Shown in pieces: positions 36,301 through 60,781 of a stretch of DNA of 60,781 nucleotides. Made by a program: the position numbers and the translations under genes. The notes under the pieces are model-generated. The model was not told the DNA's origin. It searched no databases and saw only the letters and a program-made list of their open reading frames with translations. Position 1 is the first letter of the stretch. The number at the start of each line of letters is the position of its first letter. Origin of the DNA: an uncultured bacterium (lineage in GTDB: Bacteria > Patescibacteriota > Patescibacteriia > CAIQCM01); NCBI GenBank assembly GCA_963708045.1, contig OY970181.1, forward strand, positions 1,127,443 to 1,188,223, in the 5' to 3' direction.

Positions 36301-37075
36301 TTCCCGTTTCAAAATTAGCGCTACAAAGTCCGCAAATAAGCGGGCGGCCAGTCAGTGATTTAACCGATGAAGAGATGGAAACATGAAAAACGGAATCAGC
36401 TGGTAGACAGAAATAGTCGGAATTTTCTTCGCACGCTGTCGTTGGTTTCCATATCGCGGTGTTGCCGTTAACCGTAACGGTGCCAACAATGCTTGCCCCG
36501 CCGGTCGTAATTGAGATTGTTCCGGCGGTGGTGGTGGTTGGGTCAGGCGAACCGTTTTTAAAGACGATTGCCACTTGAACATTTTTTGGAAATTTAGTGC
36601 CGGCTGGCCGGCCATCCGGCGGATTAATCGCCGAAACCATAAAGTCGCTCGTTGTGATTGGTGGAATAATATCGCCACCAGGCGGGTTAGTGCCAGTGCC
36701 ATCGGCGCCCGTCGCCGCAAGAAGATTATTCACAACATATGTTGTGATGGAAAAGGCTGAGAGAATAATCACCAAACCAATAATCGCTTGTGAAAGAATT
36801 CGTTTGGCGGTCGCAACTTTTTCTTCATCCCCGCCCGCCGTCATCCAAGTAAAACCTGAGTAGAGCACAAGACCGAGCGCGACAACGCCAAGCAAACCCA
36901 AGGCAACTTGAATAATCCGGCCGATAATCGCGCGAATATCGCCATTTCCAAGTCCAGTTTGACTTCCCACAACGTCGGCACCGAGCTGGGCATGAACCGC
37001 CGAAAAAGAAATTAACGCAAAAACAAACGCCAGCGCGGAAATAAGAAAGATTTTTTTTGCGTACTTTCTAAACAT
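27362..37075 (-). CDS. Giant (~3,240 aa) surface protein: CPR TrbC/VirB2-like pilin N-terminus, Ig-like (Big_5/IPT-TIG) domains, many Myxococcus-type Cys-rich repeats, pseudopilin-like segment, C-terminal YfaP/DUF2135-like domain
   Basis: Uninterrupted ORF; signal peptide + GRIIQVALGLLGVV...WMTAGGDEEKV...IIGLVII; repeated CG[N/D]GxxxxxExCD; P.SGGPGT.VTI.G.GFG TIG repeats; LTWGATPTNLDIHL and GFGPEAITV near the C-terminus. Confidence 0.88.
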   Translation of the reverse strand: MFRKYAKKIFLISALAFVFALISFSAVHAQLGADVVGSQTGLGNGDIRAIIGRIIQVALGLLGVVALGLVLYSGFTWMTAGGDEEKVATAKRILSQAIIGLVIILSAFSITTYVVNNLLAATGADGTGTNPPGGDIIPPITTSDFMVSAINPPDGRPAGTKFPKNVQVAIVFKNGSPDPTTTTAGTISITTGGASIVGTVTVNGNTAIWKPTTACEENSDYFCLPADSVFHVSISSSVKSLTGRPLICGLCSANFETGNYIDTAPPTVAITSPVNNQSVPVNSLVSIFSNATDDSAVATVGYSANSAVLGSVGFAPWKYDWNTTGIAPGTNVALKALATDLAGNTASSADVNVILRPIHCFNGVKDSDETGLDCGGSCGACPGDSCNIDADCFSGICFNNICVDKPRIDSVDPLSGGPGTYVTINGAGFGSVPGRVIFTGTDAIGDEKVTTACAPSAWTNNEVIVAVPDGAVSGALELVTNSNGSDRTDDTFGALVSNFTITNIVLPGICTLSPDTGGPGTSIAINGIGFGDNQGTNEADFADRSANVSAWTGAKITALVPNLLSGIWPVRVKVGETLSNGVSFSVPLAAGVPHIIEMNPISGPVGEYITITGVNFGDTQGRVNFVQGTDTYLGKTDFPEACSKIFWHNNSITVKAPAGGTIGNYTVRVVTVSGVPSDNTKDFSLGGGTPKPGLCRIDPSAGPVGSKFTLYGERLGSSSGTVTFTKNKNVNTFSAWNDGQISGAVSGAATTGSVTATEVNGQTSNSVLFAVGNCKTANICEGGTVCCDNGTCRGPKADGSSACAPTRYEGAYAYRFSTGTIPLVPHVIDDFVCDKYTQSPSPYLGTKDACINALVSVRFDIGMNDATLVPANFNIYSCGTDEQFDSAKCSTTSVKGLVQPFGASQPIESGMNFIADANFAKNTWFKAVVSKNVASVAAVNMDEDYVWTFRTRDSLEPCALAGVNVSPAENLLTDIWKVGDGIAQKNITYSDYLASPHAANCNAVKCDAYGWNWTNEQINSVWVVGNTNASGVKLCTAVARALQETAVSPDKIIASATDINNASKVLGSGNGLLTVKFTDPVVKSFWPNCDKACLEAEVGAEFNTAMNAGTMTKNNVKLFSCTDETCQTTTDLGAAVNYSDTSIHVVTFPGVSLATNKYYLVRITNNVKSSAGVSLTGTNSMWNGFAVFAWSFRVGTDHCKVAAVGINPPLITTNIIGEYDSLTAMPITSPDSCSASGQKIDPFKISDWTWKIEPKIPPATSAGSELYKNGALNVRPVNSLYVTSNCLKTGSEAPRPVCGNGVVEDGAGKAKSWGAIKGGGGGGEECDLGNGNDAAGTPTDGSSGSGCSANCLFTGARTLACSGSNSNCCGDSVTQGVCQPGVIGFVPSANPVACSADKPCANGFCRYDVPGAEQCDVGTNNGKAGSGCSTRCLSLGSNSVTPKTTCGNNDLAFNEQCDNGFGAGCSSECLDEGSMPGISVCGNSRVEDGEDCDAGANNGKAGSGCSAVCLHTGTPVCSGLSGSVCCGNTDPDPGEDVGCDQGLDLVTKQPIVAQGCDLSCRKIGSSFYYSTPSVCADSQLGLGETADPGSKDLFPDPTQYSHTIGIGNPDPASKAFTSTVTAATGGVSGTGTIKLQCGYTQDNQCSRDGLGNQTYVGYNTCCYGAPKIVSVIPVDTSAFPPATTPRVCRNPYILISFDRLLDEKTVPGKVTVGMTQNCKIAQVPASSQGLMGFVQKISVFLNKVWRLVAGDLVKAQVPNCKTSGSIKILTEYKTDNTPYTALQFMPDQALAPMADYYITVYGLDGEGVAGIRGVDGVAMQTSLRSKFSTGTDICTLDEVLINTDPVATKNMDTYLFSDITKLSETFNAIPIHREGSTVQAIAPIANVYSWSWKWNAATTMPAPPPDINLVTANGTLNSQVVTVNDATKTGEAAVTAVATIDVDTLTKPKPSTPTKIAGQTTVTVMMCQAPWPAGSGATWAPWPMSNADGTKTSLPNNKFNFSFFYCRDNGTGAKLPELGNPVMSDNPTPDFLRQYLLTYVGDTTHKTEGIGLRIAANTKWLSPTAYFASRGFTGSPQSLKIAGYNAVQDGRTVYANAPNFSTTYKFFPNIYILSYSDGAGTDTQNIFSQLKNNLRFNTNISGLNFKYCAKSGGSCTTDEDCKKIIPSNPADFCTTSGDELRRDTKRFEDMSTLAQAVTNVKNKTNAYPQLAAGTYMTGYSFSKWPSWSAEFATEIGASPPADPLNYTGTCNEAGYDKATCWNEALKQFFCPQDANMYGYSTDAAAGFNLIANFETERTGSVYEICPYTTNAACFADPLCYVVGTNCVPRLNSDTQCNGSTIGTGNNVCGDGVVGSNEECEKNQTQSVTCGTNAFAIQTCDATCRWQSGACQAVRCGNGAREGFCANLSLCTKNSDCADNVCNFAEACDEGKLNGTYNHCNASCTGYSTRCGDGVLDTGEKCDLGAANGQYDSGCSLDCQGKAPYCGDLYINGSETCDGGSEQRTTGCTKNADGIQLVSTRTCNLPGAAAACSWGSWGACGVPVGVGCGNGKTEGNEQCDDGGNNGIHNRCLPTCKLAVCGDGFLKTGTEECDSAGENVRPTDTVKIAELSSNCKAATCTYCTNACTIGVVTGGFCGDGVIQSGEQCDNDGGNVGGDEILYCDDQTGATCEKCSLQCKKVFAPYCGDGIVNGGEGCDAGAGNDIPGSGCSNTCECSLDIIASNKAPKFTVTNDPNYTTGAVPVTVYPCNPGWSKIEGAACVWGEIVDAGSTVKHYYFKYEFTLAKPSRSATIQISADNAYMLYVDGSFLDKHGYAMEGNSFLDLYTWDLDLSGGLTHTIKIDAYNVYNGQGSAGNPAGLWFRVISTPDCSKNVAARCGDGVVNGQEECDGNDFGGKISCKDWGDFDDGSISCSNSCSVVSSGCRNCVITLTGKIIDGQSSKGVPNQPILAYCGETKLAESTSNTNGRYSINIRNNAELDKCSRIVKLVSTNAQGYCFDPTSQSISVDLNPNDSCSKTVAVNDILVITQEPLPGKYTFVLTWGATPTNLDIHLKETNTGVYPGQAACSYSEAKAPEGRHVIAPCTYGNQARRCVVNGVLDQNKVCTNNDDCSNGSPCACLVVDNGNLVLDTDGQSGFGPEAITVTAHDDIRGFVYVNSPTAQFTGSKAQVKTWGNGCTVNTYSVESADNYGTSGRWWEVFNFRLTNGQMNFSSRGNGSGGLVSTSSGAPQWDDPAIICP

Positions 37076-37080
37076 GTCGT

Positions 37081-38958
37081 TTATTCTTTGCAATATAAGC
37101 CGCCGGATGAATTAGTCGCACAAGCCGACGCACACGCAATTTCGCCACCAGCATTTGGACAACAATATGGACGGTTGGTGTCAGCGCCGCAAGCCGGGAA
37201 GAAACAATTCTGGTTCATATCAGTAATTCCCGAGGTAGCATTTGGATAATAATCAAAGCGCGTGAGCGAACAAGTACCGGTTCCGCAGTCAGAATCCACG
37301 GAACAATTTTTCCCAAGCAACGTGCCGCTTTCGCAAACGCCAACGGTCGGCGCGAGCGCTTGGTGAATTATCAAGCCGCGTGTATAAGCGATTGGATCAA
37401 GCAAAGAAACGACCGGCTTACCGTCGGTACCAATATTTTCACCAGCGCCAAAATACCAAAACGGCAACTGTTCGCGCGGGTTGGTGTTAGCCCATCCGGA
37501 AAAAAGCAAATAACGATTGTCCAAAGTCGTCATTGCCATTGGTTTTGAAAAATTAAGCTGAATTGGGGCGGTGGGATTAACTCCGCTCCCGTCAGCCATT
37601 GGAGCGGTTGAGGTAATTTTTGGCGGCATTAAGTCAATTTGATCGGAAGTTTTAAAACCCCAAGCAACACTATCGGTGGTCGGACCTTCGGCTTTGCCGT
37701 TCGCATTACCGTCTAACGAATTACCCGCAACGTCGGTTACGCCATCAAAAGGATATGGCAAATCAGCCTGCGGCGGGCTGTTATTCGCGCTCGCAGCCAT
37801 AGCTTTAATAGACAACGTTTCATTGGCTGGCAAAATATAAACGTTGTTGCCACAGGAGTTTTGACCACCCAAAACATTAGAACGGAATTCTATTGTTTTA
37901 TAAACATTGCCGATTTGCCAGTTTCCTGGCACTAATTTGTTTGCAGAATCAACGACTTTTACGTTGGAAAACGGCGGAATATCGCCAGCCGAGCCAACCG
38001 GATCAATGGCTTCGTTAAAATTAATTTGGATGAGCGAATTTCGCGGAACGCCGGCAGCGCCATTTCCCGGATAATAGGAAACAACCTGCGGCGGCGTTAT
38101 GTCTATTGTTGTTGACGTTTCAAATTCCCAGTGATAACCAACGCTCCACGACCCGTCAAAGCCAGCCGTGCCATTGGCGCGCTTAATTCCTTCGCCACCA
38201 CCTTTAAGGAAGACGGTGTATGAAACTTTTTCCGTCGGACTCCCAAGGAACTGGCTCGGCATGAAAACAAAAGTTTTATTATCGTTCGTATAGCCGTTTG
38301 CGTCAGTTATAAATTTATTCGCGTCGGTTTGTGCAATTCCACCCGCGGCAATATCCGCCGTCTTGATTATTTTTATGTTGGCGGCGTTGATCTTGCCGTC
38401 GGCGCCGATTATTGAATCGCGCAGCATGGCGATTTTAAAAGTAACGATAATTTTTGTGTTGCGCGGAATATCCGTTCCTCCCGGCGGCGGATAATGCGCT
38501 TGGATTATCCCCTCGCCCAGAGAACCAGTGTCAAAATTCGCGTACCCACCAAGGTTGGCGCCGCCGTTTGTGTTTCCGCCAGAGGTCGCGCCGATAAGTT
38601 TAGAAATAATAAATTGCGCAATCGCGAAAGCACTAAGGATGATGACCAGACCAATAACGGCATTGCGAATAATTTTTTTTGCTTCTTCAATTTTTTCTTC
38701 ATTGCCACCACCCGTCATCCACAAATAACCGGCGTAAATAATGTAACCAAGAAGCACGACGCCGACGAGCCCGAGCGCCGCCTGAATAATTCGGCCAATG
38801 ATTACGCGAATGTCACTGTTACCAAGACCGGTTCCTTGCGCAACTTGCGTAAGATCGGTTGTTAAAGTTTGCGCTAGGGCTGGCACGGCCACAAACGCAA
38901 AAACCGCGCACAGTACTGCGCCCAAAATTAACGCTGAAATATTGATGCGTTTTTTCAT
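37081..38958 (-). CDS. CPR pilin-domain protein with three Ig-like (Big_5-like) domains and Cys-rich C-terminus
   Basis: Pilin segment closely similar to that of the giant protein; P.G.G.T.IPRNT.I.V.F and PP.V....P....V..N..IQI.F repeats. Confidence 0.85.
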   Translation of the reverse strand: MKKRINISALILGAVLCAVFAFVAVPALAQTLTTDLTQVAQGTGLGNSDIRVIIGRIIQAALGLVGVVLLGYIIYAGYLWMTGGGNEEKIEEAKKIIRNAVIGLVIILSAFAIAQFIISKLIGATSGGNTNGGANLGGYANFDTGSLGEGIIQAHYPPPGGTDIPRNTKIIVTFKIAMLRDSIIGADGKINAANIKIIKTADIAAGGIAQTDANKFITDANGYTNDNKTFVFMPSQFLGSPTEKVSYTVFLKGGGEGIKRANGTAGFDGSWSVGYHWEFETSTTIDITPPQVVSYYPGNGAAGVPRNSLIQINFNEAIDPVGSAGDIPPFSNVKVVDSANKLVPGNWQIGNVYKTIEFRSNVLGGQNSCGNNVYILPANETLSIKAMAASANNSPPQADLPYPFDGVTDVAGNSLDGNANGKAEGPTTDSVAWGFKTSDQIDLMPPKITSTAPMADGSGVNPTAPIQLNFSKPMAMTTLDNRYLLFSGWANTNPREQLPFWYFGAGENIGTDGKPVVSLLDPIAYTRGLIIHQALAPTVGVCESGTLLGKNCSVDSDCGTGTCSLTRFDYYPNATSGITDMNQNCFFPACGADTNRPYCCPNAGGEIACASACATNSSGGLYCKE

Positions 38959-51435: not shown

Positions 51436-52179
51436 TCATCTAGCCAATACACTATTTATCTTCGCACAAAACTCCGTCGTAAATTGTTGATCAACGGTAA
51501 GGCTGGTAAAATATTTATTTATATTTTCAACACCATTTATCAAATAAATCCAGGTTTTTTTACTATTAATATGAATTAAACCGTTTCGTGTAAAAACAAC
51601 CGCCTTGTTTATGATTAAATTATTAATATTATTTTTATTAAAAAATTGTTTTAATTTTTCACAATGTTCATCAGCTTCAAACCTAGGGTCTATGTTTATA
51701 GGCATTGGGAAACGCTGGCCGTCAATGCTGTAAAAGATTCGATTATCAAAAATTTCAAGATTATTTAATAAATTTTTTACCTCAAGAATGATTACACCTT
51801 TGGGTCCAACAATAAGCGCGTTGATATCAAATTTCCTTCCCGGAATTATAAAATTTTTATATAGCGTATAGCCAATTGGTAAAATCTTCTCTAGTTCAAA
51901 AAACATTAATTCTTCTCCTTTAATTCCAAGCTCAGCATTTTTAATATTATTAAAAAACTTGTCATCAATCCGATCTAATTTATTAACAATTTTATTATTT
52001 AACGGGTAATAAAAAAATCCGAGGATAAACAAAATTGACCCACTCAAACCAAGCCCTAATTTATAAGGCGATTCATTGCTAATATAACCAATATAAATTC
52101 CGATAAAAAACAGAACAATAATAAAAGGAATAAATATTTTTAGTCTATTTATCCAGATTATCTTTTTTGTATATCTCAT
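51436..52179 (-). CDS. NERD (nuclease-related domain) protein with two N-terminal TMs
   Basis: GIKGEE, DINALIVGPKGVIILEVK. Confidence 0.82.
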   Translation of the reverse strand: MRYTKKIIWINRLKIFIPFIIVLFFIGIYIGYISNESPYKLGLGLSGSILFILGFFYYPLNNKIVNKLDRIDDKFFNNIKNAELGIKGEELMFFELEKILPIGYTLYKNFIIPGRKFDINALIVGPKGVIILEVKNLLNNLEIFDNRIFYSIDGQRFPMPINIDPRFEADEHCEKLKQFFNKNNINNLIINKAVVFTRNGLIHINSKKTWIYLINGVENINKYFTSLTVDQQFTTEFCAKINSVLAR

Positions 52180-52206
52180 GTTTTATGGCTTAAACTAAAC
52201 TTATAT

Positions 52207-53274
52207 TTAATCACAAACTACGTAATGCAAGTATTCAAACGTCTTATTATTTTTAAAATTTCTATTTTCTGATTTATCCGCTTTAAACCTACTATATTCT
52301 TTCTTAAAAAATCCATACCTACCACGCAAGCTCATTATTTCTTTAATGTCATTTAAAGACATCAGTCCTTCGTTATTGTAACTTAAAAAAATATATTTTG
52401 CTTTTAATTTTAAAATTAAATCTTTAAACGAATTCTTTACGTTCGTTTTAGAACAATAGGATGATTTAATATTTTGATATTCGCGTAAGCCTGTCTTTCC
52501 GTGAATTTTTGGGTTGTCGTATTTTGCAATGGTTTCCAATAAATGATAATTCGTTGCGTATTGACGGTGATTATATGGCGGATCCAAATAAATAACATCG
52601 CCAGAAATTTTTTCCGCCAATTTATTTATATCTTCGTTATAAACATCGTGATCCTGATCATTAATTATCAACTCAGCCGGTTTTAAAACAAGATCTTTTT
52701 GAGCACTTGTTTTTAATTTTTTTAAAAATGCGCCATAGACGGATGCCGTATTAGCATATTTATCTATTGATCCAATCAAACTGGCCAACAAAAAGTAATA
52801 TTCGTTATCGGTTAATAACTTTTCTTTTTTCCAATATTCAATTTTTTGGCGAATCGTGTCACAACGCATTCCATTTTTATCAGAAAAATATTGACGCGTT
52901 TCTTTTTTATTTTTTGTTCCACCAAAACAATAATTTTTATAAATAAATCCGTTTTTCCCTTTTAAATTTGACAAAAGATCACAAACAAAACTTTTTCGGT
53001 CGTCAACCTTAACCCCTTTTAAGTCAGGGATTTCTTTTAGAAGTTTTAAAAATTTTAAAGGTTTATGATTTCCAATATAGTGCCTGTTCAAAACATAGCT
53101 ATAATATTGAATATCGTTAGCAATTATTTTTTTTCCCTTTCTTTTAAAATAACTTCCGACCATTCCCGTTCCAGCAAAAAGATCACAAAAAGTAACAAAA
53201 TTTTTACCAACTACTGTGGTAATTGAATCATCCAAAAAGTCTAACAGTGATAATTTACTACCAATATAATTCAT
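52207..53274 (-). CDS. m6A DNA methyltransferase, M.NlaIII/M.HpyI-like (probable CATG specificity)
   Basis: MNYIGSK, CDLFAGTG.VG, ANDIQYYS..LN..YIGN, YLDPPYN.RQY..NYHLLETIA; paired with an NlaIII-like REase. Confidence 0.88.
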   Translation of the reverse strand: MNYIGSKLSLLDFLDDSITTVVGKNFVTFCDLFAGTGMVGSYFKRKGKKIIANDIQYYSYVLNRHYIGNHKPLKFLKLLKEIPDLKGVKVDDRKSFVCDLLSNLKGKNGFIYKNYCFGGTKNKKETRQYFSDKNGMRCDTIRQKIEYWKKEKLLTDNEYYFLLASLIGSIDKYANTASVYGAFLKKLKTSAQKDLVLKPAELIINDQDHDVYNEDINKLAEKISGDVIYLDPPYNHRQYATNYHLLETIAKYDNPKIHGKTGLREYQNIKSSYCSKTNVKNSFKDLILKLKAKYIFLSYNNEGLMSLNDIKEIMSLRGRYGFFKKEYSRFKADKSENRNFKNNKTFEYLHYVVCD

Positions 53275-53277
53275 TTT

Positions 53278-53973
53278 TTATTCTTTTTCTTCTGGATATA
53301 ATTTTTTAAAAACTTGATCTACAGCCTCATTTGCCGATAATTCACTTATCTTCCTTACAATAACTTTTCTATACTCAACAGGATCGTATTGATAACACCC
53401 CTTACATCCCAGTTCCTCGGAATAATTTTCATCACCTATGTAAAAATCATATGGGTTACCTTTAATATTTTTTGCCTTCCATCGCTTGTTGGTTTCCTTA
53501 CAATTTTTACAAATTTGCCTTTTAATGTCATTTGCCGCTTTTGAAAGGGGTTGAAAATCAGTTAAATTTTGTTCGGTTAAATTTGAAAGCCTATGGTCAT
53601 TCTTTCTGCCATCTTTGTGATCAATTTCTATCTTTGTATTTTCGGACTTACCACTAACACCAAGCATTACGCAATTTTGTATCTTATAAAAATCTTTTAT
53701 GTCTTTTCTAATGTTCTGATTTAAAATTTTTTTGTTATTGAATCCAAACAACCGAACCCTGTTCATAGAATTTCCGTTTGTTATACTTTTATCAAATTGA
53801 ATGATATATTCTTTTGCTAGGCCAGAATTTGCTCGACACCAACTTCCACCGTTTCCAAGTTTAAGTTTTTTGTATTTATTAACGAATTCTGATACCGAAA
53901 CCCAACGACTTATGCCTTGTTTGTTGGGTGTCGCTAGTTCCAAAAACAATTCCTTTAATTCCTTTTTTGACAT
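53278..53973 (-). CDS. HNH restriction endonuclease, NlaIII/IceA1-like
   Basis: SRWVSV.EF, LGNGGSWCR, EIDHKDGRK, KRQICK.CKET, C.GCYQYDP..YRK. Confidence 0.88.
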   Translation of the reverse strand: MSKKELKELFLELATPNKQGISRWVSVSEFVNKYKKLKLGNGGSWCRANSGLAKEYIIQFDKSITNGNSMNRVRLFGFNNKKILNQNIRKDIKDFYKIQNCVMLGVSGKSENTKIEIDHKDGRKNDHRLSNLTEQNLTDFQPLSKAANDIKRQICKNCKETNKRWKAKNIKGNPYDFYIGDENYSEELGCKGCYQYDPVEYRKVIVRKISELSANEAVDQVFKKLYPEEKE

Positions 53974-53974
53974 A

Positions 53975-54763
53975 TTAAAATTTATTTTTGAAAATTAAGA
54001 TATATTCGTGTTTAAAAATGTAATAATCGCTTGAAAGCGCCCGATAACGCCAAATTCCCTCTTTGTTTTGTTTAGCACGGTTACCTTCCATATTCTTAAC
54101 TATTATACTCTTTAAAGTCAAACCTAGCTTTTGGGCTTCATTTAAACAATAAAACCCCAAAGGAATCCATTTCCCTTGAGTGTATTTGTCTCCTATTACT
54201 ATCGCTAGATATTGATCTTTTTCAAGAATTTCTATTGTATTACGCAGAACTAGAGAAAATTTTTCTAAGAATTCCTTTAAAGACCCCGCGTTAGATAAAT
54301 CTTCTTTTTTATCGCTAAATTTAATTATATCAGCATAAGGTGGGTGAAGTATAGCTAGTTGAACATTCGTTTTTTCCTTTGTCTTTAAAAAATCCTTTAT
54401 CCTATCTACTGTCCCAGTATGAGCGCTGTCGGCAACCAAAAGACCAGAAAAATAATTTTTATTATCAACTTTGTCTTTTATGTATTTTATAAGCTCGGGT
54501 TGAATATCAACACCGATAAAATTACGCCCTAAGTTTTCTGCTTCAAACGCCGTAGTTCCGCTTCCAACAAACGGGTCAAAAACAATATCATCCTTTTTTG
54601 TATATCTTAAAATTAACTGCCTCGGCACTTGCGGAACAAAATTTCCATGGTAAAAACCGCTATGTTTTCCAGATTTATCCCTTTCGTTTATAAGCCAAAG
54701 ACTATCAGTCAAAACTTCTGATTCTTTCCATTCATCTAAATTTAAATCATTGAAAATTGGCAT
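53975..54763 (-). CDS. Second amino-DNA methyltransferase (m6A or m4C)
   Basis: GNFVPQVP, DPFVGSGTT (motif I), HPPY (motif IV), HEYILIFK. Confidence 0.85.
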   Translation of the reverse strand: MPIFNDLNLDEWKESEVLTDSLWLINERDKSGKHSGFYHGNFVPQVPRQLILRYTKKDDIVFDPFVGSGTTAFEAENLGRNFIGVDIQPELIKYIKDKVDNKNYFSGLLVADSAHTGTVDRIKDFLKTKEKTNVQLAILHPPYADIIKFSDKKEDLSNAGSLKEFLEKFSLVLRNTIEILEKDQYLAIVIGDKYTQGKWIPLGFYCLNEAQKLGLTLKSIIVKNMEGNRAKQNKEGIWRYRALSSDYYIFKHEYILIFKNKF

Positions 54764-54910
54764 GATTTGAATTGTATTTTACTAAATTTTTCTTGATTTG
54801 ATAAGAGCTAAAGAAAAATCGGCACACGGATCGGATACCGACTTTCTAATCGTAGCGTATCTTTATTTTATTTGGATTAAAATGGACATCCAACGGTGTA
54901 AAAAGCATCC

Positions 54911-55222
54911 CTAAAAGTTAAACTTCGTGACAATTCTACCCCCTTTAAACTTAACCCCATCCGCCACCAACCTCTTCTTCTGCCCCTTCGCCCCGCCAAA
55001 CTTATATCCCTTCGCCAATCTCCCATCCGCCCGCACGACTTTGTAGCACGGAATTTCATCCGACCTCTCATTCTGCCGCAATATCCATCCGACATTCCTT
55101 GGATTAGCTATTCCAAACTTTTTCACGATCATTCCATAACTCACCACCTTCCCCTTGGGGAGGGATTTTAAAAATTTGAAAACAGAAAAAACCAAAATCT
55201 TAAATTTATTAATTTGGTACAT
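54911..55222 (-). CDS. Single-domain O6-alkylguanine alkyltransferase-like (MGMT family) protein
   Basis: GKVVSYG.I, PRNVG.IL..N, IPCYKVV...G...GY. Confidence 0.8.
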   Translation of the reverse strand: MYQINKFKILVFSVFKFLKSLPKGKVVSYGMIVKKFGIANPRNVGWILRQNERSDEIPCYKVVRADGRLAKGYKFGGAKGQKKRLVADGVKFKGGRIVTKFNF

Positions 55223-55239
55223 CAAAAAAATTTTCAAAT

Positions 55240-55262
55240 ATTAGACCTGACCCCGTTTATAA
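55240..55262 (-). repeat. Additional copy of the GGGTCA[A/G]GTC motif
   Basis: Minus strand tataaacggggtcaggtctaata aligns with the 6313-6338 and 4751-4774 copies. Confidence 0.65.
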
Positions 55263-55264
55263 TA

Positions 55265-55972
55265 TTAATTTATTCTGATTCTGTGTTCTTTTAAGAAATC
55301 TAGAACTAAAGAACTTTTTATTACAACCGCATTTTCTACAATTATTTTTCTTCCACCCACCCCTTCGCTTACTCGAGGAGAGGTAACAGACCCCTGAATC
55401 CCTAACACCATTCCTCCTGTATTAAAAACGGGGCCGCCGCTCATACCAAAAAGACCAATATCCCTAACTAGAAAACCATCATGAGTTCTGTTTTTACCTT
55501 GACCATTATCTGATAGCGATTTCGTATAATCTAAAACAAATGAAGGTTGAAAATATCTTCTTACTCCATTCAACACAATTCCGCCTTGTGAATTTTTAGT
55601 AATTTGAGCGAGGGGGTATCCACCGATACACACAGTTCGTCCGATATCAGGGATTGTTTTTGAAAGGCTCACAAAATCGGGTGTATTCTTTTTAATTTTC
55701 CCAATGAAAATGTCATTATCATCATCTCTCGCCATCTCTTCAATTTCAATATGTGGTTGCTCGATGTTTTCTGGAAGTTTGCCAAAATAATAAAATTTTG
55801 TTTTATCTATTTTATTATCAAAAACATGAGCGACAGATATAAAATTTCCATTAGAACTTATAAAAAAACCAGTTCCGACAACATTTATTCTAATTTGATT
55901 TTGCTCTATCTGATCTACCCTAAAAATAGGAAACATCGCCTTCTTAATATTTTTAATAGAAAATGCGAACAT
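55265..55972 (-). CDS. Trypsin-like serine protease (Trypsin_2-type)
   Basis: Catalytic triad: SVAHVF (His), DIFIGK (Asp), GMSGGPVF (Ser). Confidence 0.85.
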   Translation of the reverse strand: MFAFSIKNIKKAMFPIFRVDQIEQNQIRINVVGTGFFISSNGNFISVAHVFDNKIDKTKFYYFGKLPENIEQPHIEIEEMARDDDNDIFIGKIKKNTPDFVSLSKTIPDIGRTVCIGGYPLAQITKNSQGGIVLNGVRRYFQPSFVLDYTKSLSDNGQGKNRTHDGFLVRDIGLFGMSGGPVFNTGGMVLGIQGSVTSPRVSEGVGGRKIIVENAVVIKSSLVLDFLKEHRIRIN

Positions 55973-56037
55973 ATTATATGTGTCGTGTTTTTATTATGTG
56001 GATAATTTAATTCATTTTCGGGAAATTTTCGGGTATA

Positions 56038-56046
56038 TGCTATAAT
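56038..56046 (+). promoter_or_regulatory. Extended -10 promoter for the LexA-MTase gene
   Basis: TGcTATAAT; preceded by the direct repeat ttttcggg x2 at 56015-56033. Confidence 0.45.
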
Positions 56047-56084
56047 ATGTATAAAGTATAATCCTTCGGCAAATCCAGTCAACA

Positions 56085-56960
56085 ATGACACCAACGCTCA
56101 CCAAAAAACAAAAAAAGGTTTTTGACTTTATCAGCTCCTACCAAGATAAACACGGCATCTCCCCTACTATAGAAGAAATGGGGCGGCATTTTAGGCGCGC
56201 GGTGGGGACGATTCACGAACACATCTCTATTCTTGTTGCTAAAGGATTTATCAAAAAAAATAATTCCGCCCGCGGCATTCAAATAAACACCAAAGACAAA
56301 CTCGTCAAAATACCGCTTATGGGAACAGTCGCTGCCGGGTGGCCCATTGGGGTAATCCAAGAAAAAGAAACGAATGTCATTTCTAATAGCAAAATTCTTG
56401 ACGAGATATTAAAGCCAAAAGATGTTAAGCGAAGTCGCGATTTGCCTTTAAACCAAATTATTTTAAACGACGCTGTCGCCGAACTGCGCAAACTCCCTAG
56501 CGAAAGTTGTGACGTCATTATTATTGATCCGCCTTACAACATTGGCAAAGATTTTGGTAACAATCTTGATAAACGAGAGTTGGATGAATATGTTCGTTGG
56601 TCCAAAAGCTGGATTAACGAAGCAATCCGAATTTTAAAACCGACTGGCACGATGTTTATTTACGGCTTTAGTGAAATTCTGGCGCACCTTTCTGTTGAAA
56701 TTCCTATTAACAAGCGCTGGCTTATTTGGCACTACACAAATAAAAACGTTGCGTCGTTAAATTTTTGGCAACGAAGCCACGAATCTATAATCTGCGCTTG
56801 GAAAAACAAGCCGCTCTTTAATCGCGACGAAGTGCGCGAGCCATACACCGAAGGCTTTTTAAACGGTGCCGCCGGAAAAGTCCGCAAGGGAACGGTTGGC
56901 CGATACAGCAAGAATGGCCAAGAAACAATAACCTGGGACAGGGTGAGCACGCCTCGGTAG
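56085..56960 (+). CDS. LexA-type winged-helix DNA-binding domain fused to a beta-class DNA methyltransferase; 3' end lost at a sequence junction near 56,930
   Basis: LTKKQ..VFDFI..Y...HG.SPTIEE + IPLMGTVAAG, then IIIDPPYNIGKDF; MTase motif I is absent and the reading drifts into high-GC DNA after ...QETIT. Confidence 0.8.
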   Translation: MTPTLTKKQKKVFDFISSYQDKHGISPTIEEMGRHFRRAVGTIHEHISILVAKGFIKKNNSARGIQINTKDKLVKIPLMGTVAAGWPIGVIQEKETNVISNSKILDEILKPKDVKRSRDLPLNQIILNDAVAELRKLPSESCDVIIIDPPYNIGKDFGNNLDKRELDEYVRWSKSWINEAIRILKPTGTMFIYGFSEILAHLSVEIPINKRWLIWHYTNKNVASLNFWQRSHESIICAWKNKPLFNRDEVREPYTEGFLNGAAGKVRKGTVGRYSKNGQETITWDRVSTPR

Positions 56961-57360
56961 TGAACGTTCGAATCCGGGGCCGCGGCAAGGGCTATGCCGC
57001 AGGCGATATTTTGCAATTCAAACCGGGCGGTGCGGCGGGTAAAGTGGCCGCCGTGGGTCCCGCAGGCGGAATACTCGCCATTCGCCTGATCGCCGGCGGT
57101 GATGGTTATGCGCCATTGACGCCGGTTACGGTGAAATCCGCTAGAGGCTCTGGCGCCAATCTTGTGGCCATGACGGATCGGTTTTTCTGTCACGGCCTTA
57201 CAGCAGCAAGTGGGTCGCCAAGTTTGCCAGGGATTCCCTGCTGTACTGGAAGTGCATGGGCTCACGCCGGGACGGGCGCACCGACGCGCAATACAACAAC
57301 GATATTGATTTCGGCGCTGCACATCCATCGGGGGCGACTCCTGCAGAGTGCGGGGTGATC
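56935..57360 (+). other. Unrelated high-GC fragment encoding Gly-rich GxGY repeats (phage structural protein-like)
   Basis: GKGYAAGD..GGDGYAP..GSGANL; abrupt compositional change; no start context. Confidence 0.3.
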
Positions 57361-57413
57361 GGGCGCTGGATTGACACTGGAATACAGAACTAACGAAACA
57401 TTGGAGTTGAGTA

Positions 57414-58876
57414 ATGGAAGAGTATGACGTCTGCGTAATCGGCGCCGGATTTGGCGGCGCCTCTGTGGCGGCGCTGCTGGCGAAAAGCGGCAAGAAAGTC
57501 GCGCTGCTGGAGAAAACCGCGCGCGCCGGCGGTAAAACCCAGACCACGGAGCGCAAGGGCTATCGCTTCGAGATGTTCGGCGCCGTGGGCATTCCCGCCT
57601 ACAATTCCCGCTTTCACGAACTGGTGGACACGCTGGGCATCGCCGAGCGCACGCCGTTTGTCGTGCCCGAGGGTAACGCCGCGTCGATGCGCTACCTGAA
57701 CAGGGACGGCCAGTGGAAGGTCAGTTACAACCCGCTGATGGCGACCGGCTCGGAGCAGGAAATGACGACCATGAAGGAGACCTTCGGGGTGACCGATGCG
57801 GAGCTGGAAGCGCTTGGGCGCGTTTTACGGCGAGATTCTCAGTTTGGGCGACGCGGACATCAACGCGCTGGATGACACCGGCGCCTACGCCTGGATGGCG
57901 CGCTTCAACCTGGCCACGCCGCTGGTGAGCCAGATCTGCATGAACCTGAACACGCTGTTCGTGGTCGCGGTGGACCGGCTGCCGGCGTCGGAAATGATTT
58001 TCGCGCTGCGCGACCAGGTGCTCGGCGGCGCCGGCCGTTACCATATCGGCGGCTACGGCCGCGTGGCCGAAGTGTGCGCGGACTATGTGGTGGAACACGG
58101 CGGCCTGTACCTGACCAAGACCCGCGTGCAGAAAATCCTGGTGGAGGACGGTCGCGCCGTCGGCGTGCGGGTCGACGGGCGCGACATTCGCGCGCGCGCC
58201 GTGATTTCCAATGCCGGCATCCAGCCGACGGTGCTGCAACTGGCGGGCGCCGAACATTTTCCCGCAGAGTATGTCGCGCGCGTCACCGCGCTGGAGCCGA
58301 GCTGGGCGATCTGCGGTTTCCGCTATGTGCTGGACAAGCGCATTTTCGATGCCGCCCTGATTCCGGTGTTTTCCGACGAAAGCTGGCTGAACGAGCAGCG
58401 CTACCAGGACATGCTGCAGCGGCAAGTGGCCCAACGTGCCGCTGATCGCCATCGATGTGCCGTCGGAGTTCGATCCGGGCCTGTCGGATATTCCCGGCCA
58501 CCAACTGGCGAACTGCCAGGTGTTCATGCCGGCGGACACCGAGTCGGCGCTGGTGGATGAGGCGATCGCGCGCTGCGAGGCGGTGATCGACGAGCTGTGG
58601 CCAGAGCTGAAGAACCACATCGTGCGCAAGGAGCCCTACGGCGCGAAACAGATTTCCAGCATGAGCCGCGACGTGGCGGTACCGGGCTGCGGCGGCGAGG
58701 CCGTGGGCATCGCGCAGGTGGTGGGGCAGTGCGGCAGCAGCAAACCGGATGCGCGCACACCGCTGCCCGGCCTGTACATCGTCGGTTGCGACGCCGGTGG
58801 GCGCGGCGCCGGCACGCACCAGGCGGTGGATTCGGGCTTCAATGTGGCGGCGATGGTGGAGCAGGATCTGGCCTGA
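57414..58876 (+). pseudogene. Phytoene desaturase-like FAD-dependent oxidoreductase split by two single-base frameshifts (foreign high-GC fragment)
   Basis: VIGAGFGG...LEK..RAGGK Rossmann motif; frames join at ~57,817 (ELEALG/AFYGEIL) and ~58,420 (DMLQ/GKWPNVP); C-terminal LPGLYIVGCDAGGRG.G...A..SG. Confidence 0.7.
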
Positions 58877-58960
58877 TGCAGAGCGAGTTCCAGTACCAGT
58901 TGTAATAATCAACCTCTGATCATCCGGTTCCAACAGGGCTGACGACGCACACTCTGGCAG

Positions 58961-59385
58961 CTATTTTTCAGTACCCACTTGCGTGTTCCGGCAGTTATTC
59001 TTGTCCTTGGTCATAGCGTCTTTTATAGCTTGAACCCATTCGCGGCGTTTACGTTCGGTGAGCTTCTGTTCACGCATATACTCATCTACTACATTCTGGT
59101 TCGCGCGGTTGACAAAGACATTTAGTACAGGGTCATGAGTTCTTTGCATCTCGCCTTCCAGTGCAGATTGAAGGTCCTTAATTTCCTTTTTATATGAAGG
59201 ATCAGCGATTAAATTGACAAGGCAATTAGGGTCATTCTGGATATCGTAAAACTCTTCAATGACGCGATGTTGTAACAATCTCATCCTTTGGGCAAGTTTC
59301 TCATCCTCCTTGGCAAGCTCCACCATTCGCTTGTAAGTGTTGGTGTTGAAGGATGCAGACTCCATGCCTCGCTTGCTGCCGCCGC
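58961..59385 (-). other. C-terminal fragment of a sulfatase-like protein (foreign)
   Basis: EEFYDIQNDPNCLVNLIADPSY..EIKDLQ..L...M..T.DP is a typical sulfatase C-terminus; lower GC than the flanks; no N-terminus. Confidence 0.55.
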
Positions 59386-60781
59386 CTGAACCGTCGGCAA
59401 GATCGAGTTGCCGCTGTAGTCGAAGACCAGCTTGCCACTGACGACGTCGGCGCCCCCGCCCAGCGTGAGCACCGGCCCCCGCACCGACGCCCAACTCCAA
59501 GACACCGCCGTTGACCGTCGTCAGCCCCGTGTAGGAGTTGGCGCCACTGAGGATGAGCGTGCCGAGGCCGAGCTTGGTCACTCCGCCGTCGCGATTGCTG
59601 CCGCCATGCGCCAGAACCACGCCGATGCCCGCATTGCAACCGTTCGTGTCGAGGCGGGCGCCGCCCTCCTTGATTTGGACGTTGCCGCTTTCGTTGCTCG
59701 TTATCCACGCGTTATTGGTCGCGAGGGCCTTGAGGGTACCGCAGTCGATAGTGACGCTAGCGCCGGAACTGGACATACGACTGCTCGTGCGAGGACGGTG
59801 CCGCCGCTAATGATGTTCAGTGTCCCGCGGCCACCGTTGCCGACAGAGAGATCGCCGCTGTTGCTCCATGTTGAACCGCTTCCGTCACCGTCGCCGTGCC
59901 GCTGCCCCCGGAAACGTAGCCGAGGTAGCCAACGCTGTTGCTGACGCTGCCGCCGCTAGTGATGGTCAGCACCCCGCTGCCGCTGGAGCCGACAACGAGG
60001 TAGCTGCTGTTGCTCCACGTTGATCCGCTTCCCGTCACCGTCGCTGTGCCGCTCGCTCTAGCATTGCAGCCGATGTAGCCGGAGTTGCTCGTGACGCTGC
60101 CGCCATTGCTGATGTTCAGCGCCCGCTGCTGCCACCGGAGGTGGCATAACCGTAGCCGATATCGAGGTCGGCGCTGTTGTGGAGGTTGCCGCCGTTGGTG
60201 ACATTCAGCGTCCCGGTGCCGTAGGAGCCGACATAGAAGGTGCTGCTGTTGTTCCACGTCGAACCGCTTCCCGTCACCGTCGCCGTGCCGCTGCACCCCA
60301 TAGCTGCGGCCGATGTCGCCGTACTGCGAGTACACCGTGGCCCCGTTCTGAATCGTCAACGAGCCATTGCCGTTGTAGCCTGCGCCAAGGCTGCCATTGC
60401 CGCTTGTGGCCCGCAAGTCCACTGTCATGGTGCCCGCCGCGCCGAACGCAACCGTGGTCATTCCCGTGCCGTCGAATGTCAAACTCCCGTCGCTCACCAT
60501 CCCGCGGGTGTTTAGGACGCCGGTGCCCGTCAGGTCGCTTGCCCGCGCGTACAACGACTTGGTCGTCAGCGTCCCGCCCCCGGCGCCGAAGGCAATCAAC
60601 CCGGCGGAACCCGTGGTCCACGCAACGTAGGTCCCGACACCGACTGAGACGCTGCCGCCGCCCGCGAGGTTCAGCGTCCCGCTGCCGCCGTAGGCGCCCT
60701 GAAAGTCACTGCCGCCGATATAGAGGTTGCTGCCGTTGCTCCACGTCGAACCGCTTCCCGTTACTGTCGCCGTGCCGCCCC
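59386..60781 (-). other. Frameshifted fragment of an autotransporter-associated beta-strand-repeat protein (foreign, high GC)
   Basis: Repeated GTATVTGSGSTW.NSS.L.VG..G.G.L.I..GG.V units and GG.TKLGLGTLILSGANSYTG.TTV.GGVL; several frame switches. Confidence 0.7.

What the first reader, a model, noticed from the sequence alone, without database searches (positions are those of the whole stretch)
56085..56935. LexA DNA-binding domain with intact Ala-Gly cleavage site fused to a DNA methyltransferase, but with no peptidase domain
The N-terminus is a LexA winged helix followed by IPLMGTVAAG, equivalent to the LexA VAAG scissile Ala-Gly. The chain then goes straight into a beta-class MTase (DPPY) instead of the Ser/Lys peptidase. 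This could be an autoregulated MTase, or one released by trans cleavage during SOS (by host LexA, or by the divergently transcribed trypsin-like protease at 55265-55972). That would give damage-inducible methylation or defence. The C-terminus (motif I) is lost at the junction near 56,930.
Basis: partly seen in the sequence, partly recalled or inferred. Interest (0 to 1): 0.65.

Follow-up and report, generated by a model that had tools for sequence, protein, structure and literature searches.

The report
LexA-headed restriction methylase missing its protease
This gene is the methylase of a restriction-modification cassette from a tiny uncultured (Patescibacteria) bacterium; it carries a LexA-derived DNA-binding head that most likely shuts off its own promoter, it descends from a widespread and apparently undescribed family of complete LexA-methylase fusions, and its tail is missing only because the contig is a chimera.

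Summary
ORF 56085-56960 has a LexA winged helix (aa 4-61), an Ala-Gly site aligned to E. coli LexA A84-G85, no S24 protease, and a beta-class DPPY methylase that breaks off at nt 56930.

It is not an artefact. An independent metagenome contig (L001, 84.5% nt identity) has the same in-frame ~100-codon deletion, and dN/dS is 0.08.

The parents are ~507-aa LexA(DBD+S24)-methylase proteins, abundant in Patescibacteria. A convergent TaqI-family endonuclease usually follows them. The same LexA head is fused to three unrelated methylase classes, always behind one promoter module: TGTGGATAA, a period-11 direct repeat on the promoter core, and usually a reverse-facing promoter. The repeat sequence co-varies with the LexA recognition helix, so autorepression is the best-supported mechanism.

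The S24 domain was lost at least three times independently. Trans-cleavage is unproven. The trypsin-like neighbour is not a conserved partner, yet the 15-residue AAG peptide is unusually conserved in this lineage.

The 3' truncation is a blunt join to foreign 62% GC DNA, probably an assembly chimera.

No paper describing the fusion was found. I rate it a new variant of N-terminal-HTH autoregulated methylases.

The parts
55997..56005 (+). TGTGGATAA, the reverse complement of the DnaA-box consensus TTATCCACA. It is a conserved upstream element of the cassette promoter; its function is untested.
   Evidence: It occurs once in the window. The exact 9-mer lies 50-88 nt before the start codon in about 22 of 32 fused loci; there are 33 copies in 443 kb in all. 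It is also present upstream of LexA fusions to other MTase classes and absent upstream of MTase-only relatives. There is no inverted partner beyond the REase, so it is not a terminal repeat.
56015..56033 (+). Direct-repeat operator TTTTCGGG-aaa-TTTTCGGG (period 11). It is the inferred binding site of the LexA-type winged helix.
   Evidence: One search gives the exact match. It is identical in L001 (S24-less) and L104 (S24+). A period-11 repeat lies at -39 to -72 in 28 of 32 loci; the TTCTA type is never found elsewhere in 0.5 Mb. The repeat type co-varies with the helix: H-F/Y-H with TTCTA, H-E/Q-H with TTCGG. Direct-repeat LexA boxes are known, including in Patescibacteria (PMC7739468).
56038..56046 (+). 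Probable forward promoter, an extended -10 (TGcTATAAT) placed immediately 3' of the operator.
   Evidence: Read directly from the sequence. In relatives the repeats lie between a -35 and a TATAAT/TATACT -10. The consensus scan did not call a -35/-10 pair on this strand, so this part is inferred.
56055..56082 (-). Reverse-facing sigma-70-like promoter TTGACT-16-TATACT. It uses the conserved GTCAA just 5' of the start codon and points through the operator toward the divergent neighbour.
   Evidence: scores it 10/12. A site in the same position scoring >=10/12 occurs in about two-thirds of fused loci, with 12/12 in L013 and L022. Function is untested. Facing promoters are a known R-M control device (Ecl18kI, EcoRI; PMC3874152).
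56094..56267 (+). LexA-type winged-helix DNA-binding domain (aa 4-61; recognition helix AVGTIHEH).
   Evidence: PF01726, E 1.4e-10. TIGR00498 profile positions 3-102 are matched. dN/dS is 0.15 against L001. AF2 pLDDT is 70-86 for residues 1-66.
56301..56345 (+). Remnant of the LexA cleavage-site region, LVKIPLMGTVAAGWP (aa 73-87). A84-G85 at 56334-56339 aligns with the scissile bond.
   Evidence: Alignment to E. coli LexA. Against L001 it has 0 nonsynonymous and 3 synonymous differences, while the flanking linker has pN 0.21. It lies in a segment with pLDDT about 30.
56398..56415 (+). Scar of the in-frame deletion (~297-300 nt, ~99-100 codons) that removed the S24 catalytic core.
   Evidence: Window 55990-56397 matches L104 5906-6313 and window 56416-56929 matches L104 6629-7142. 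The window and L001 share the same endpoints. The missing columns hold the Ser and Lys residues.
56442..56930 (+). N-terminal two-thirds of a beta-class N6/N4 DNA methyltransferase (DPPY at 56526-56537), broken off before the Cys/His insertion, motif X and motif I.
   Evidence: PF01555 profile 2-124/221. PADLOC MTase_II, E 2e-32. dN/dS 0.013. The closest solved structures for the family are M.RsrI, M.MboIIA and CcrM. The full C-terminus is present in P0002.
56930..56931 (.). Blunt junction between the Patescibacteria-type DNA (left) and foreign 58-65% GC DNA (right). The last 10 codons of the ORF (56931-56960) are read-through into foreign sequence.
   Evidence: Homology to L001 and L104 stops at 56929. 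Contigs from four other metagenomes match from about 56931-56936 rightward and continue leftward into a different GC-rich sequence. GC jumps from 0.35-0.43 to 0.61-0.65. TCGA O/E is 0.16-0.24 on the left and 1.11 on the right.

Best explanation
The ORF is the modification methylase of a Type II restriction-modification cassette from a Patescibacteria (CPR) genome. Its partner in relatives is a convergent TaqI-family endonuclease, and the target is possibly TCGA.

In this phylum the methylase gene acquired a complete LexA at its N-terminus: winged helix, Ala-Gly site and S24 Ser/Lys autoprotease. It also acquired a dedicated promoter module consisting of a DnaA-box-like 9-mer, a period-11 direct-repeat LexA box on the promoter core, and usually a reverse-facing promoter.

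In the window's lineage one in-frame deletion of about 99-100 codons removed the S24 core. What remains is a LexA winged helix tethered by a roughly 55-residue linker, probably disordered, to the methylase.

Shown by comparative sequence evidence: (1) the architecture, (2) its descent by a shared deletion, (3) purifying selection on both domains after the deletion, (4) operator conservation and helix-operator co-variation, and (5) the R-M pairing.

Inferred: two fusion proteins bind the TTTTCGGG-N3-TTTTCGGG repeat at 56015-56033 and repress their own promoter, as the N-terminal-HTH methylases SsoII/Ecl18kI/EcoRII do. Dimerisation would be supplied by the methylase domain or by tandem binding rather than by S24. 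This variant cannot self-cleave, so it is an SOS-blind, constitutively autoregulated form.

Also inferred, for the S24-containing parents: RecA*-stimulated self-cleavage detaches the DNA-binding head and derepresses the methylase. DNA damage, including self-restriction caused by under-methylation, would then raise methylase supply.

The missing 3' third of the gene and the missing endonuclease gene result from a chimeric join at 56930/56931. They are not a biological feature.
For: Domains and missing S24.

Large parent family: 5544 hits, the best 120 almost all ~507 aa with PF01726+PF00717+PF01555 and labelled Patescibacteria. There are 26 full-length loci among 80 GTDB species representatives. 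P0017 passes the NCBIfam lexA equivalog cut-off (184.6 vs 110.95, profile 4-202/203) and aligns end to end with solved LexA structures. A83/G84 are invariant and the S24 Ser and Lys are >=90% conserved.

Same deletion in an independent assembly: L001 at 84.5% nt identity with identical endpoints relative to the syntenic S24+ locus L104.

Selection after the deletion: overall dN/dS 0.079 at dS 0.74; DBD 0.148; MTase 0.013.

R-M pairing: a TaqI-family REase (PF09573; PADLOC REase_II, 3.5e-32) lies convergent and immediately 3' in about 45 of 80 loci, including L001 and L104. TCGA is the most depleted 4-bp palindrome (O/E 0.44 in family loci, 0.16 in window 1-51000).

Operator.

Modularity: the same LexA head and promoter are fused to N6_N4, gamma N6_Mtase/Eco57I/TaqI_C and C5 methylases. 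L098 has the window's helix and operator type on a C5 methylase.

Precedents: N-terminal-HTH methylases that repress their own promoters, facing promoters in R-M control, and SOS induction by unbalanced R-M activity (PMC3874152). Direct-repeat LexA boxes (PMC7739468).

Chimera.
Against: No binding, repression, cleavage or methylation was measured; everything functional is inferred from sequence.

The helix-operator co-variation may rest on only a few independent switches between two main classes.

How an S24-less protein would dimerise on a direct repeat is unknown, and the AF2 model is poor (mean pLDDT 55).

The 15-residue AAG peptide is more conserved than a relic should be.

TCGA depletion is as strong in family loci without an intact REase (0.41) as with one (0.44). 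It is also present, more weakly (0.66), where LexA is fused to other methylases, so it does not prove the specificity.

The source reads could not be found, so the chimera is inferred from independent continuations and composition, not from read evidence.

Whole genomes could not be scanned, so I cannot say whether these cells have another LexA or whether the operator also controls SOS genes.
Confidence: 0.72

Rival explanations
1. The retained Ala-Gly site is functional. During SOS the DNA-binding head is clipped off in trans by an S24 domain encoded elsewhere in the cell (a host LexA or another LexA-methylase fusion) or by the neighbouring trypsin-like protease, so the S24-less methylase stays damage-inducible.
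For: Residues 73-87 (LVKIPLMGTVAAGWP) have 0 nonsynonymous and 3 synonymous differences between the window and L001, although the linker on both sides is fast-evolving. About 6.6 changes are expected at the linker rate, giving a Poisson P of about 0.001. The site aligns exactly with the LexA scissile bond. S24-containing fusions with the same helix and operator type coexist in the same sample and environment (L104, L098), so a trans-acting S24 in the same cell is conceivable. From my own knowledge, intermolecular LexA cleavage has been shown in vitro (Kim and Little 1993).
Against: Independent S24-less lineages cut through the site (L030) or deleted it (L032, L034) and still keep the DBD, operator, MTase and REase. 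At the DBD's own substitution rate the conservation is not significant (P about 0.10). The trypsin-like gene is absent from L001 and L104 and present in only 2 of 32 loci, one of which still has S24. No other S24 or LexA gene and no recA lies in the 57 kb available. In LexA the cleavage-site strand is presented by the catalytic core, which is missing here.
Confidence: 0.15
2. The LexA-methylase proteins are primarily the cell's SOS master repressor in these reduced genomes, and the methylase is a passenger. The window's variant would then be a lineage that lost SOS inducibility.
For: Full-length members pass the NCBIfam lexA equivalog threshold and NCBI names them 'transcriptional repressor LexA'. 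No second LexA lies within +-10 kb in 32 loci. Seeding with a standalone-size LexA (P0148) still recovered fused genes in all the AT-rich Patescibacteria-type contigs. Patescibacteria LexA is reported to use a direct-repeat box.
Against: The matching operator was found only at the gene's own promoter in about 0.5 Mb of flanks. The LexA head is attached to three unrelated methylase classes. For the N6_N4 family it sits in a cassette with an endonuclease, at variable chromosomal sites and in AT-rich islands. At least two operator specificity classes exist, as in C-protein incompatibility groups. S24, or the whole LexA part, can be lost while the R-M pair persists.
Confidence: 0.1
3. The fusion ORF, or its lack of a peptidase, is an assembly or sequencing artefact or a decaying pseudogene.
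For: The same contig is demonstrably unreliable a few hundred bases downstream: a blunt chimeric join at 56930/56931, a 1-nt indel at 57181 relative to four other assemblies, and fragmented ORFs at 57.4-58.9 kb.
Against: An independent JGI assembly (L001) has the same deletion endpoints, an intact 409-aa ORF and an intact REase. dN/dS is 0.08 over dS 0.74. The reading frame is maintained across the scar.
Confidence: 0.03

Closest known systems
Methyltransferases with an N-terminal helix-turn-helix that repress their own promoter (M.SsoII/M.Ecl18kI, M.EcoRII, M.ScrFI; PMC3874152 refs 169-176)
   Same: A DNA-binding domain sits at the N-terminus of the modification enzyme. The operator overlaps the methylase promoter. 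A second promoter faces the first, as in Ecl18kI. The purpose is to set the M:R balance of a Type II system.
   Different: Here the head is a LexA winged helix (PF01726), not a small Xre-type HTH. The operator is a period-11 direct repeat. The ancestral form also carries an S24 autoprotease with the Ala-Gly, Ser and Lys residues. The endonuclease gene is convergent downstream rather than divergent. The module is attached to beta, gamma and C5 methylases alike.
LexA, the SOS repressor (TIGR00498; E. coli 1JHH, T. maritima 3K2Z)
   Same: The window protein has a homologous winged helix and an aligned Ala-Gly site. Full-length relatives match LexA over its whole length and keep the catalytic Ser and Lys. 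The direct-repeat box resembles those reported for some LexA lineages.
   Different: The window protein lacks the S24 core and scores below the family cut-off (58.6 vs 110.95). It is covalently joined to a methylase. Its operator was found only at its own promoter in the flanks examined.
C-protein-controlled Type II R-M systems
   Same: A dedicated transcription factor with a cassette-specific operator controls the timing and balance of R and M. Several specificity classes exist.
   Different: The regulator is fused to M rather than being a separate small protein. No operator was seen at the R gene. The parents have a potential damage-sensing switch.
TaqI restriction-modification system (R.TaqI, TCGA)
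   Same: The partner endonuclease in relatives belongs to Pfam RE_TaqI (PF09573), and TCGA is strongly depleted in the host DNA.
   Different: M.TaqI is a gamma-class enzyme (from my own knowledge), whereas this methylase is beta-class N6_N4 with a DPPY motif. TCGA specificity is not demonstrated. The endonuclease gene is not in the window.
S24-type repressors of mobile elements (phage lambda CI, ICE SetR; from my own knowledge)
   Same: A mobile or selfish element uses a LexA-like self-cleaving repressor to read the host's RecA* signal.
   Different: Those are standalone repressors controlling lysis or transfer genes. Here the repressor is part of the enzyme it regulates, and in the window the self-cleaving part has been lost.

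Membership tests
LexA repressor (TIGR00498 / PF01726+PF00717) | N-terminal winged-helix LexA DNA-binding domain | tested here: met
   PF01726 aa 4-61, E 1.4e-10, 41.2 bits > 23.7.
LexA repressor (TIGR00498 / PF01726+PF00717) | Ala-Gly scissile bond in the cleavage-site region | tested here: met
   Window A84-G85 aligns with E. coli A84-G85, in invariant columns.
LexA repressor (TIGR00498 / PF01726+PF00717) | S24 catalytic core with the Ser/Lys dyad | tested here: not met
   There is no PF00717 hit. About 100 alignment columns, including G-x-S-M and T-L-K-K, are deleted. The core is present in relatives P0003 and P0017.
LexA repressor (TIGR00498 / PF01726+PF00717) | Whole-protein score above the curated equivalog cut-off | tested here: not met
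   58.6 bits < 110.95, profile 3-102 only. P0017 scores 184.6 and passes.
LexA repressor (TIGR00498 / PF01726+PF00717) | RecA*-stimulated self-cleavage and control of an SOS regulon | not testable with these tools
   This needs biochemistry and whole genomes. In 0.5 Mb of flanks the operator occurs only at the gene's own promoter.
Beta-class N6/N4 DNA methyltransferase (PF01555) | Catalytic motif IV (D/S)PP(Y/F) preceding the target-recognition region and motif I | tested here: met
   DPPY at aa 148-151. PF01555 71.9 bits > 26.7. The motif order is seen in full-length P0002.
Beta-class N6/N4 DNA methyltransferase (PF01555) | AdoMet-binding motif I (FxGxG) at the C-terminus | tested here: not met
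   The window protein stops matching at aa 282. 'PFVGTGSE' is present in P0002 and all full-length relatives but is cut off by the junction. As assembled, the product would be inactive.
Type II restriction-modification system | Cognate endonuclease gene adjacent to the methylase | tested here: not met
   It is not in the window because the contig switches to foreign DNA at 56931. It is present, convergent and immediately 3', in L001, L104 and about 45 of 80 loci.
Type II restriction-modification system | Depletion of the target palindrome in host DNA | tested here: inconclusive
   TCGA O/E is 0.16 in window 1-51000 and 0.44 in family loci, the lowest of the 16 palindromes. The control loci without an intact REase give 0.41.
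Autoregulated methylases with an N-terminal DNA-binding domain (SsoII-like, functional class) | DNA-binding domain N-terminal to the methylase in one polypeptide | tested here: met
   It has been maintained under purifying selection.
Autoregulated methylases with an N-terminal DNA-binding domain (SsoII-like, functional class) | Specific operator overlapping the methylase's own promoter | tested here: met
   A direct repeat at 56015-56033 abuts the -10. It is conserved in position in 28 of 32 loci and co-varies with the recognition helix. This is comparative evidence only.
Autoregulated methylases with an N-terminal DNA-binding domain (SsoII-like, functional class) | Demonstrated binding and repression | not testable with these tools
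   Requires EMSA or footprinting and reporter assays.
Patescibacteria LexA(DBD+S24)-methylase fusions (~507 aa; defined here) | All three domains in one ORF behind the TGTGGATAA + direct-repeat promoter | tested here: not met
   The promoter module and two of the three domains are present. S24 was lost by a deletion shared with L001. The window gene is a derivative of this family, not a typical member.

The most novel reading that the evidence does not exclude
LexA-methylase fusions are a portable damage-sensing controller for restriction-modification systems in Patescibacteria. One promoter-plus-LexA module (DnaA-box-like 9-mer, direct-repeat box, facing promoter) has been attached to at least three unrelated methylase classes. 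DNA breaks caused by self-restriction or other damage would generate RecA*, the fusion would self-cleave, and methylase synthesis would rise, closing a homeostatic loop that protects the chromosome. S24-less derivatives such as the window's would either have opted out of this loop or, because their Ala-Gly peptide remains conserved, would still be clipped in trans by S24-bearing paralogues.
Probability: 0.3. Interest if true: 0.8.

Novelty: new variant of a known kind. Interest (0 to 1): 0.62.

Why it matters
How R-M systems keep the endonuclease from killing the host is a classic question. The known answers are C proteins, HTH-bearing methylases, methylation-sensitive promoters and antisense promoters.

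A LexA attached to the methylase would add a direct input from the cell's DNA-damage signal. That signal is exactly what unbalanced restriction produces (PMC3874152).

The fusion is abundant in Patescibacteria, whose gene regulation is almost unexplored experimentally. It recurs on three methylase classes with a shared promoter module, and NCBI currently annotates it simply as 'transcriptional repressor LexA'. That label could mislead SOS-regulon reconstructions in this phylum.

The S24-less forms are natural deletion mutants that separate operator binding from self-cleavage. They make convenient material for testing the model.

For this particular window, the practical message is that the truncated gene end is an assembly chimera and should not be interpreted biologically.

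Tried and rejected
1. An exact-sequence lookup of the window protein found no record. No indexed sequencing run holds the AT-rich left side. The runs found for the junction stretch hold only the right side. The junction therefore could not be tested with source reads.

2. The AF2 model of P0002 from a 25-sequence alignment was poor (mean pLDDT 55, pTM 0.47). I used it only for the confident winged helix and the low-confidence linker, and ran no fold search.

3. Four literature searches for the fusion returned nothing relevant. The key Patescibacteria SOS paper (Sanchez-Osuna et al. 2017) is not held, so its motif could not be compared directly.

4. I rejected the trypsin-like protease as a dedicated partner.

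5. I rejected TGTGGATAA as a cassette terminal inverted repeat, because no inverted copy lies beyond the REase.

6. I had hoped that comparing loci with and without an intact REase would pin the specificity to TCGA. The depletion was the same in both sets, so the result is only suggestive.

7. I looked for another LexA, S24 or recA gene in the window and found none. This is uninformative, since only about 57 kb of the genome is available.

8. A phage database search found no phage-borne fusion.

9. I first judged the AAG remnant a relaxed relic from the region-level dN/dS of 0.28-0.42. The per-codon analysis showed that this averaging hid a fully conserved 15-residue core, and I revised the verdict.
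Full report
**1. What is in the sequence**

ORF 56085-56960 (+) encodes 291 aa. Pfam finds a LexA DNA-binding domain at aa 4-61 and the first half of an N6_N4 DNA methylase at aa 143-256, where only profile positions 2-124 of 221 are matched. There is no Peptidase_S24 hit.

Aligned with E. coli LexA and with relatives, 'IPLMGTVAAG' matches 'LPLVGRVAAG', so A84-G85 lies on the scissile bond. About 100 alignment columns that hold the catalytic G-x-S-M serine and the T-L-K-K lysine are missing. DPPY is at aa 148-151.

After 'GQETI' (aa 282, nt 56930) the protein resembles nothing in the family.

**2. It is a real gene form, derived from a large family**

A protein search returned 5544 relatives. 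Nearly all of the best 120 are ~507 aa with LexA_DNA_bind + Peptidase_S24 + N6_N4_Mtase, come from Patescibacteria MAGs, and are often named 'transcriptional repressor LexA' by NCBI. A full-length member passes the curated lexA equivalog threshold over the whole LexA profile and aligns end to end with solved LexA structures. Ala-Gly is invariant, and the Ser and Lys are at least 90% conserved.

Only the window protein and P0002 (409 aa) lack S24 among the top hits. P0002's contig L001 comes from an independent JGI metagenome and matches window 56010-56929 at 84.5% nt identity.

The closest S24-containing relative, P0003, lies on L104, which is syntenic with the window. dprA and topA match at 78-85% nt identity, and both loci have a NERD-domain gene in the same position before the cassette. 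Relative to L104, the window and L001 lack the same ~297-300 nt with the same endpoints. So there was one ancestral in-frame deletion.

Since those two lineages split (dS 0.74), dN/dS has been 0.079 overall, 0.148 in the DNA-binding domain and 0.013 in the methylase. This is a maintained gene, not an artefact or a pseudogene.

Other lineages lost S24 independently with different borders. L030 cuts through the cleavage region, and L032 and L034 delete it entirely. L039 has S24 plus the methylase without a DNA-binding domain. L029, L031 and L036 are methylase only.

**3. It is the methylase of an R-M pair**

In L001 and L104 a 232-aa TaqI-family endonuclease gene (PF09573; PADLOC REase_II) lies convergent, with its stop codon overlapping the methylase's. 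tblastn finds this endonuclease immediately 3' of the methylase in about 45 of 80 genomic loci. These include fused, S24-less and unfused forms, and unfused homologues in DPANN archaea and Alphaproteobacteria. The M-R pair is therefore older than the fusion, and LexA was added to M in Patescibacteria.

TCGA is the most depleted 4-bp palindrome in these loci (O/E 0.44). It is extremely depleted in the window's left 51 kb (29 observed vs 182 expected). Control loci without an intact endonuclease show the same depletion, so TCGA specificity is plausible but unproven.

**4. The promoter module and the likely mechanism**

Upstream regions of about 40 fused genes share a layout:
- an exact TGTGGATAA, the complement of the DnaA-box consensus, 50-88 nt before the start codon;
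- a direct repeat with an 11-bp period lying on the -35/-10 core;
- in about two-thirds of loci, a good sigma-70-like promoter on the opposite strand whose -35 is the conserved GTCAA just before the ATG.

In the window these elements are at 55997-56005, 56015-56033 and 56082→56055, with an extended -10 at 56038-56046.

The repeat is essentially private to this promoter. It is there in 28 of 32 loci, and the TTCTA type occurs nowhere else in 0.5 Mb. Methylase-only relatives lack all three elements.

The half-site co-varies with the recognition helix. Helices reading ...H-F/Y-H go with TTTCTA, and ...H-E/Q-H (the window has AVGTIHEH) go with TTCGG. I saw no exception among loci with a recognisable repeat, and the rule holds across different methylase partners.

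Direct-repeat LexA boxes are already known to have evolved several times, including in Patescibacteria (PMC7739468). True standalone LexA genes in GC-rich contigs here have TTCGC-N6-TTCGC in the same position.

Together this makes autorepression through the LexA head the best-supported mechanism. [quoted passage not shown] In Ecl18kI and EcoRI, facing promoters add further control (PMC3874152).

For the S24-bearing parents I infer that RecA*-stimulated self-cleavage derepresses the methylase. The same review notes that unbalanced R-M activity induces SOS, so such a circuit would act as a feedback on self-restriction. None of this has been measured.

**5. The fusion is a general theme**

A search of 1.84 billion representative proteins with only the window's first 100 residues found 3706 relatives, with lengths from 74 to 841 aa among the best 150.

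Ten long ones were checked. All are LexA+S24 fusions. Nine carry a methylase domain: N6_N4, gamma-class N6_Mtase/Eco57I/TaqI_C, or C5 cytosine methylase. One (P0125) has no hit for its C-terminal part.

Ten further metagenome loci, recovered with a LexA-sized query, were also fusions: five N6_N4, one gamma-class and four C5. They show the same promoter layout, clearly so in eight of the ten; L083 has the repeat in reverse orientation and L100 has no recognisable one.

L098 carries the window's helix type and an almost identical operator on a C5 methylase. So promoter plus LexA behaves as a transferable module.

No phage record carries the fusion, and four literature searches found no description of it.

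**6. The Ala-Gly remnant**

Averaged over the linker, constraint looks relaxed (dN/dS 0.28-0.42), and AF2 gives pLDDT of about 30 for residues 69-116 (a poor model overall).

Per codon, however, residues 73-87 (LVKIPLMGTVAAGWP) have no amino-acid change and 3 synonymous ones, while both flanks change freely. About 6.6 replacements would be expected at the flanking rate (P about 0.001) and about 2.3 at the DBD rate (P about 0.10).

So the peptide seems to be retained for a reason in this lineage, even though other S24-less lineages do without it. Trans-cleavage by another S24 protein is one candidate. A degron or a structural contact are others.

The trypsin-like neighbour is not a conserved partner. 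Its best PADLOC matches are protease domains of defence proteins.

**7. The junction**

Homology to L001 and L104 ends at 56929. Contigs from four unrelated metagenomes match the right side from about 56931-56936 onward at ~95% identity and continue leftward into a different GC-rich sequence.

GC rises from 0.35-0.43 to 0.61-0.65, and TCGA O/E changes from 0.16-0.24 to 1.11.

The right side also has a 1-nt indel relative to all four assemblies, and an oxidoreductase gene split across three frames.

The join is blunt, with at most 1-2 nt of ambiguity. The most economical reading is a chimeric tail on a Patescibacteria contig. The real gene should continue for ~380 nt and be followed by the endonuclease. 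I could not obtain the source reads.

**8. Verdict**

The window's gene is a naturally S24-deleted, probably SOS-blind, autoregulated methylase of a TaqI-family R-M cassette, truncated by an assembly chimera.

Its main interest is that it exposes a large and apparently undescribed family of LexA-methylase fusions with a shared promoter module.

I rate it a new variant of a known kind (N-terminal-DBD autoregulated methylases), with interest 0.62.

Noticed in passing
window 56931-60781: The last 3.85 kb is foreign DNA at 58-65% GC with no TCGA depletion. It holds an FAD-oxidoreductase-like gene broken over three frames (57414-58876), a 1-nt indel at 57181 relative to four other metagenome assemblies, and GSGSTW-repeat (autotransporter-like) ORFs on the minus strand (58961-60599). 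It looks like a chimeric tail from another phylum.
   Followed up: partly
window 51436-55972: An AT-rich (28-35% GC) restriction/defence island lies between topA and the cassette. It holds a NERD nuclease-related gene, a D12 Dam-type methylase, an IceA-family protein (PF05315, E 2e-112), an N6_N4 methylase, a 108-aa protein with only the MGMT DNA-binding domain, and a trypsin-like protease. The protease's best PADLOC hits are the protease parts of RT-Protease_XI and LmuA. The syntenic locus L104 has a different gene set (SOUL, NERD, an unknown gene) at the same site, so this looks like a variable hotspot.
   Followed up: partly
window 55997-56005; same position in about 22 of 32 loci L001-L037 and in L082-L093: A perfect DnaA-box consensus 9-mer (TTATCCACA/TGTGGATAA) is conserved just upstream of LexA-methylase promoters, whatever the methylase class. 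It is rare elsewhere (33 copies in 443 kb, most at this promoter). It may couple methylase expression to DnaA or replication status, or it may bind something else.
   Followed up: partly
window 56055-56082 (minus strand); equivalent position in L002-L026: A conserved reverse-facing sigma-70-like promoter sits in the 5' leader and fires through the LexA box toward the upstream gene. That gene is usually divergent with a 77-115 nt gap but differs between loci (trypsin-like, DUF4209, SMODS-like nucleotidyltransferase, TPR, SEC-C, MsrA, unknowns). The variable neighbours might be co-regulated cargo.
   Followed up: partly
L085, L091, L093, L098, L100; P0138, P0146, P0157, P0237: Complete LexA (DBD+S24) is also fused to C5 cytosine methylases and to gamma-class N6_Mtase/Eco57I/TaqI_C methylases. 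L098 has nearly the window's operator and helix on a C5 methylase.
   Followed up: partly
L039 9992-11329 (OZ244939.1, a Paceibacterota chromosome): This variant has the S24 domain and the methylase but no LexA DNA-binding domain, the reciprocal of the window's architecture.
   Followed up: no
window 1-51000: TCGA is about six-fold depleted (29 observed vs 182 expected, O/E 0.16), while GATC and CTAG are not. This is consistent with long-term exposure to a TCGA-specific restriction enzyme.
   Followed up: partly
window 27362-38958: A 3243-aa ORF lies next to a 625-aa protein with a T4SS-pilin domain and a bacterial Ig-like domain. Giant surface proteins of this kind are often seen in Patescibacteria genomes (my own recollection).
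   Followed up: no
window 6630-10184: A 1184-aa single-chain R-M protein (HSDR_N-like N-terminus, N6_Mtase/Eco57I methylase, Type I S-like specificity domain) lies in another AT-rich block (30-35% GC). It is probably a Type IIG enzyme.
   Followed up: no
L094, L096, L097 (GC-rich soil and peat contigs): Genuine 206-aa standalone LexA genes have TTGACTTCGC-N6-TTCGC-TACAAT. This is a period-11 direct repeat between -35 and -10, the same layout as in the fusion promoters, but without the TGTGGATAA element.
   Followed up: no
P0127, P0155, P0156, P0172; L082: Several database 'LexA-sized' (~190-200 aa) Patescibacteria proteins have garbled C-termini or come from ORFs that run off contig ends. Counts of standalone LexA in this phylum may therefore be inflated by fragments of fusion genes.
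   Followed up: partly
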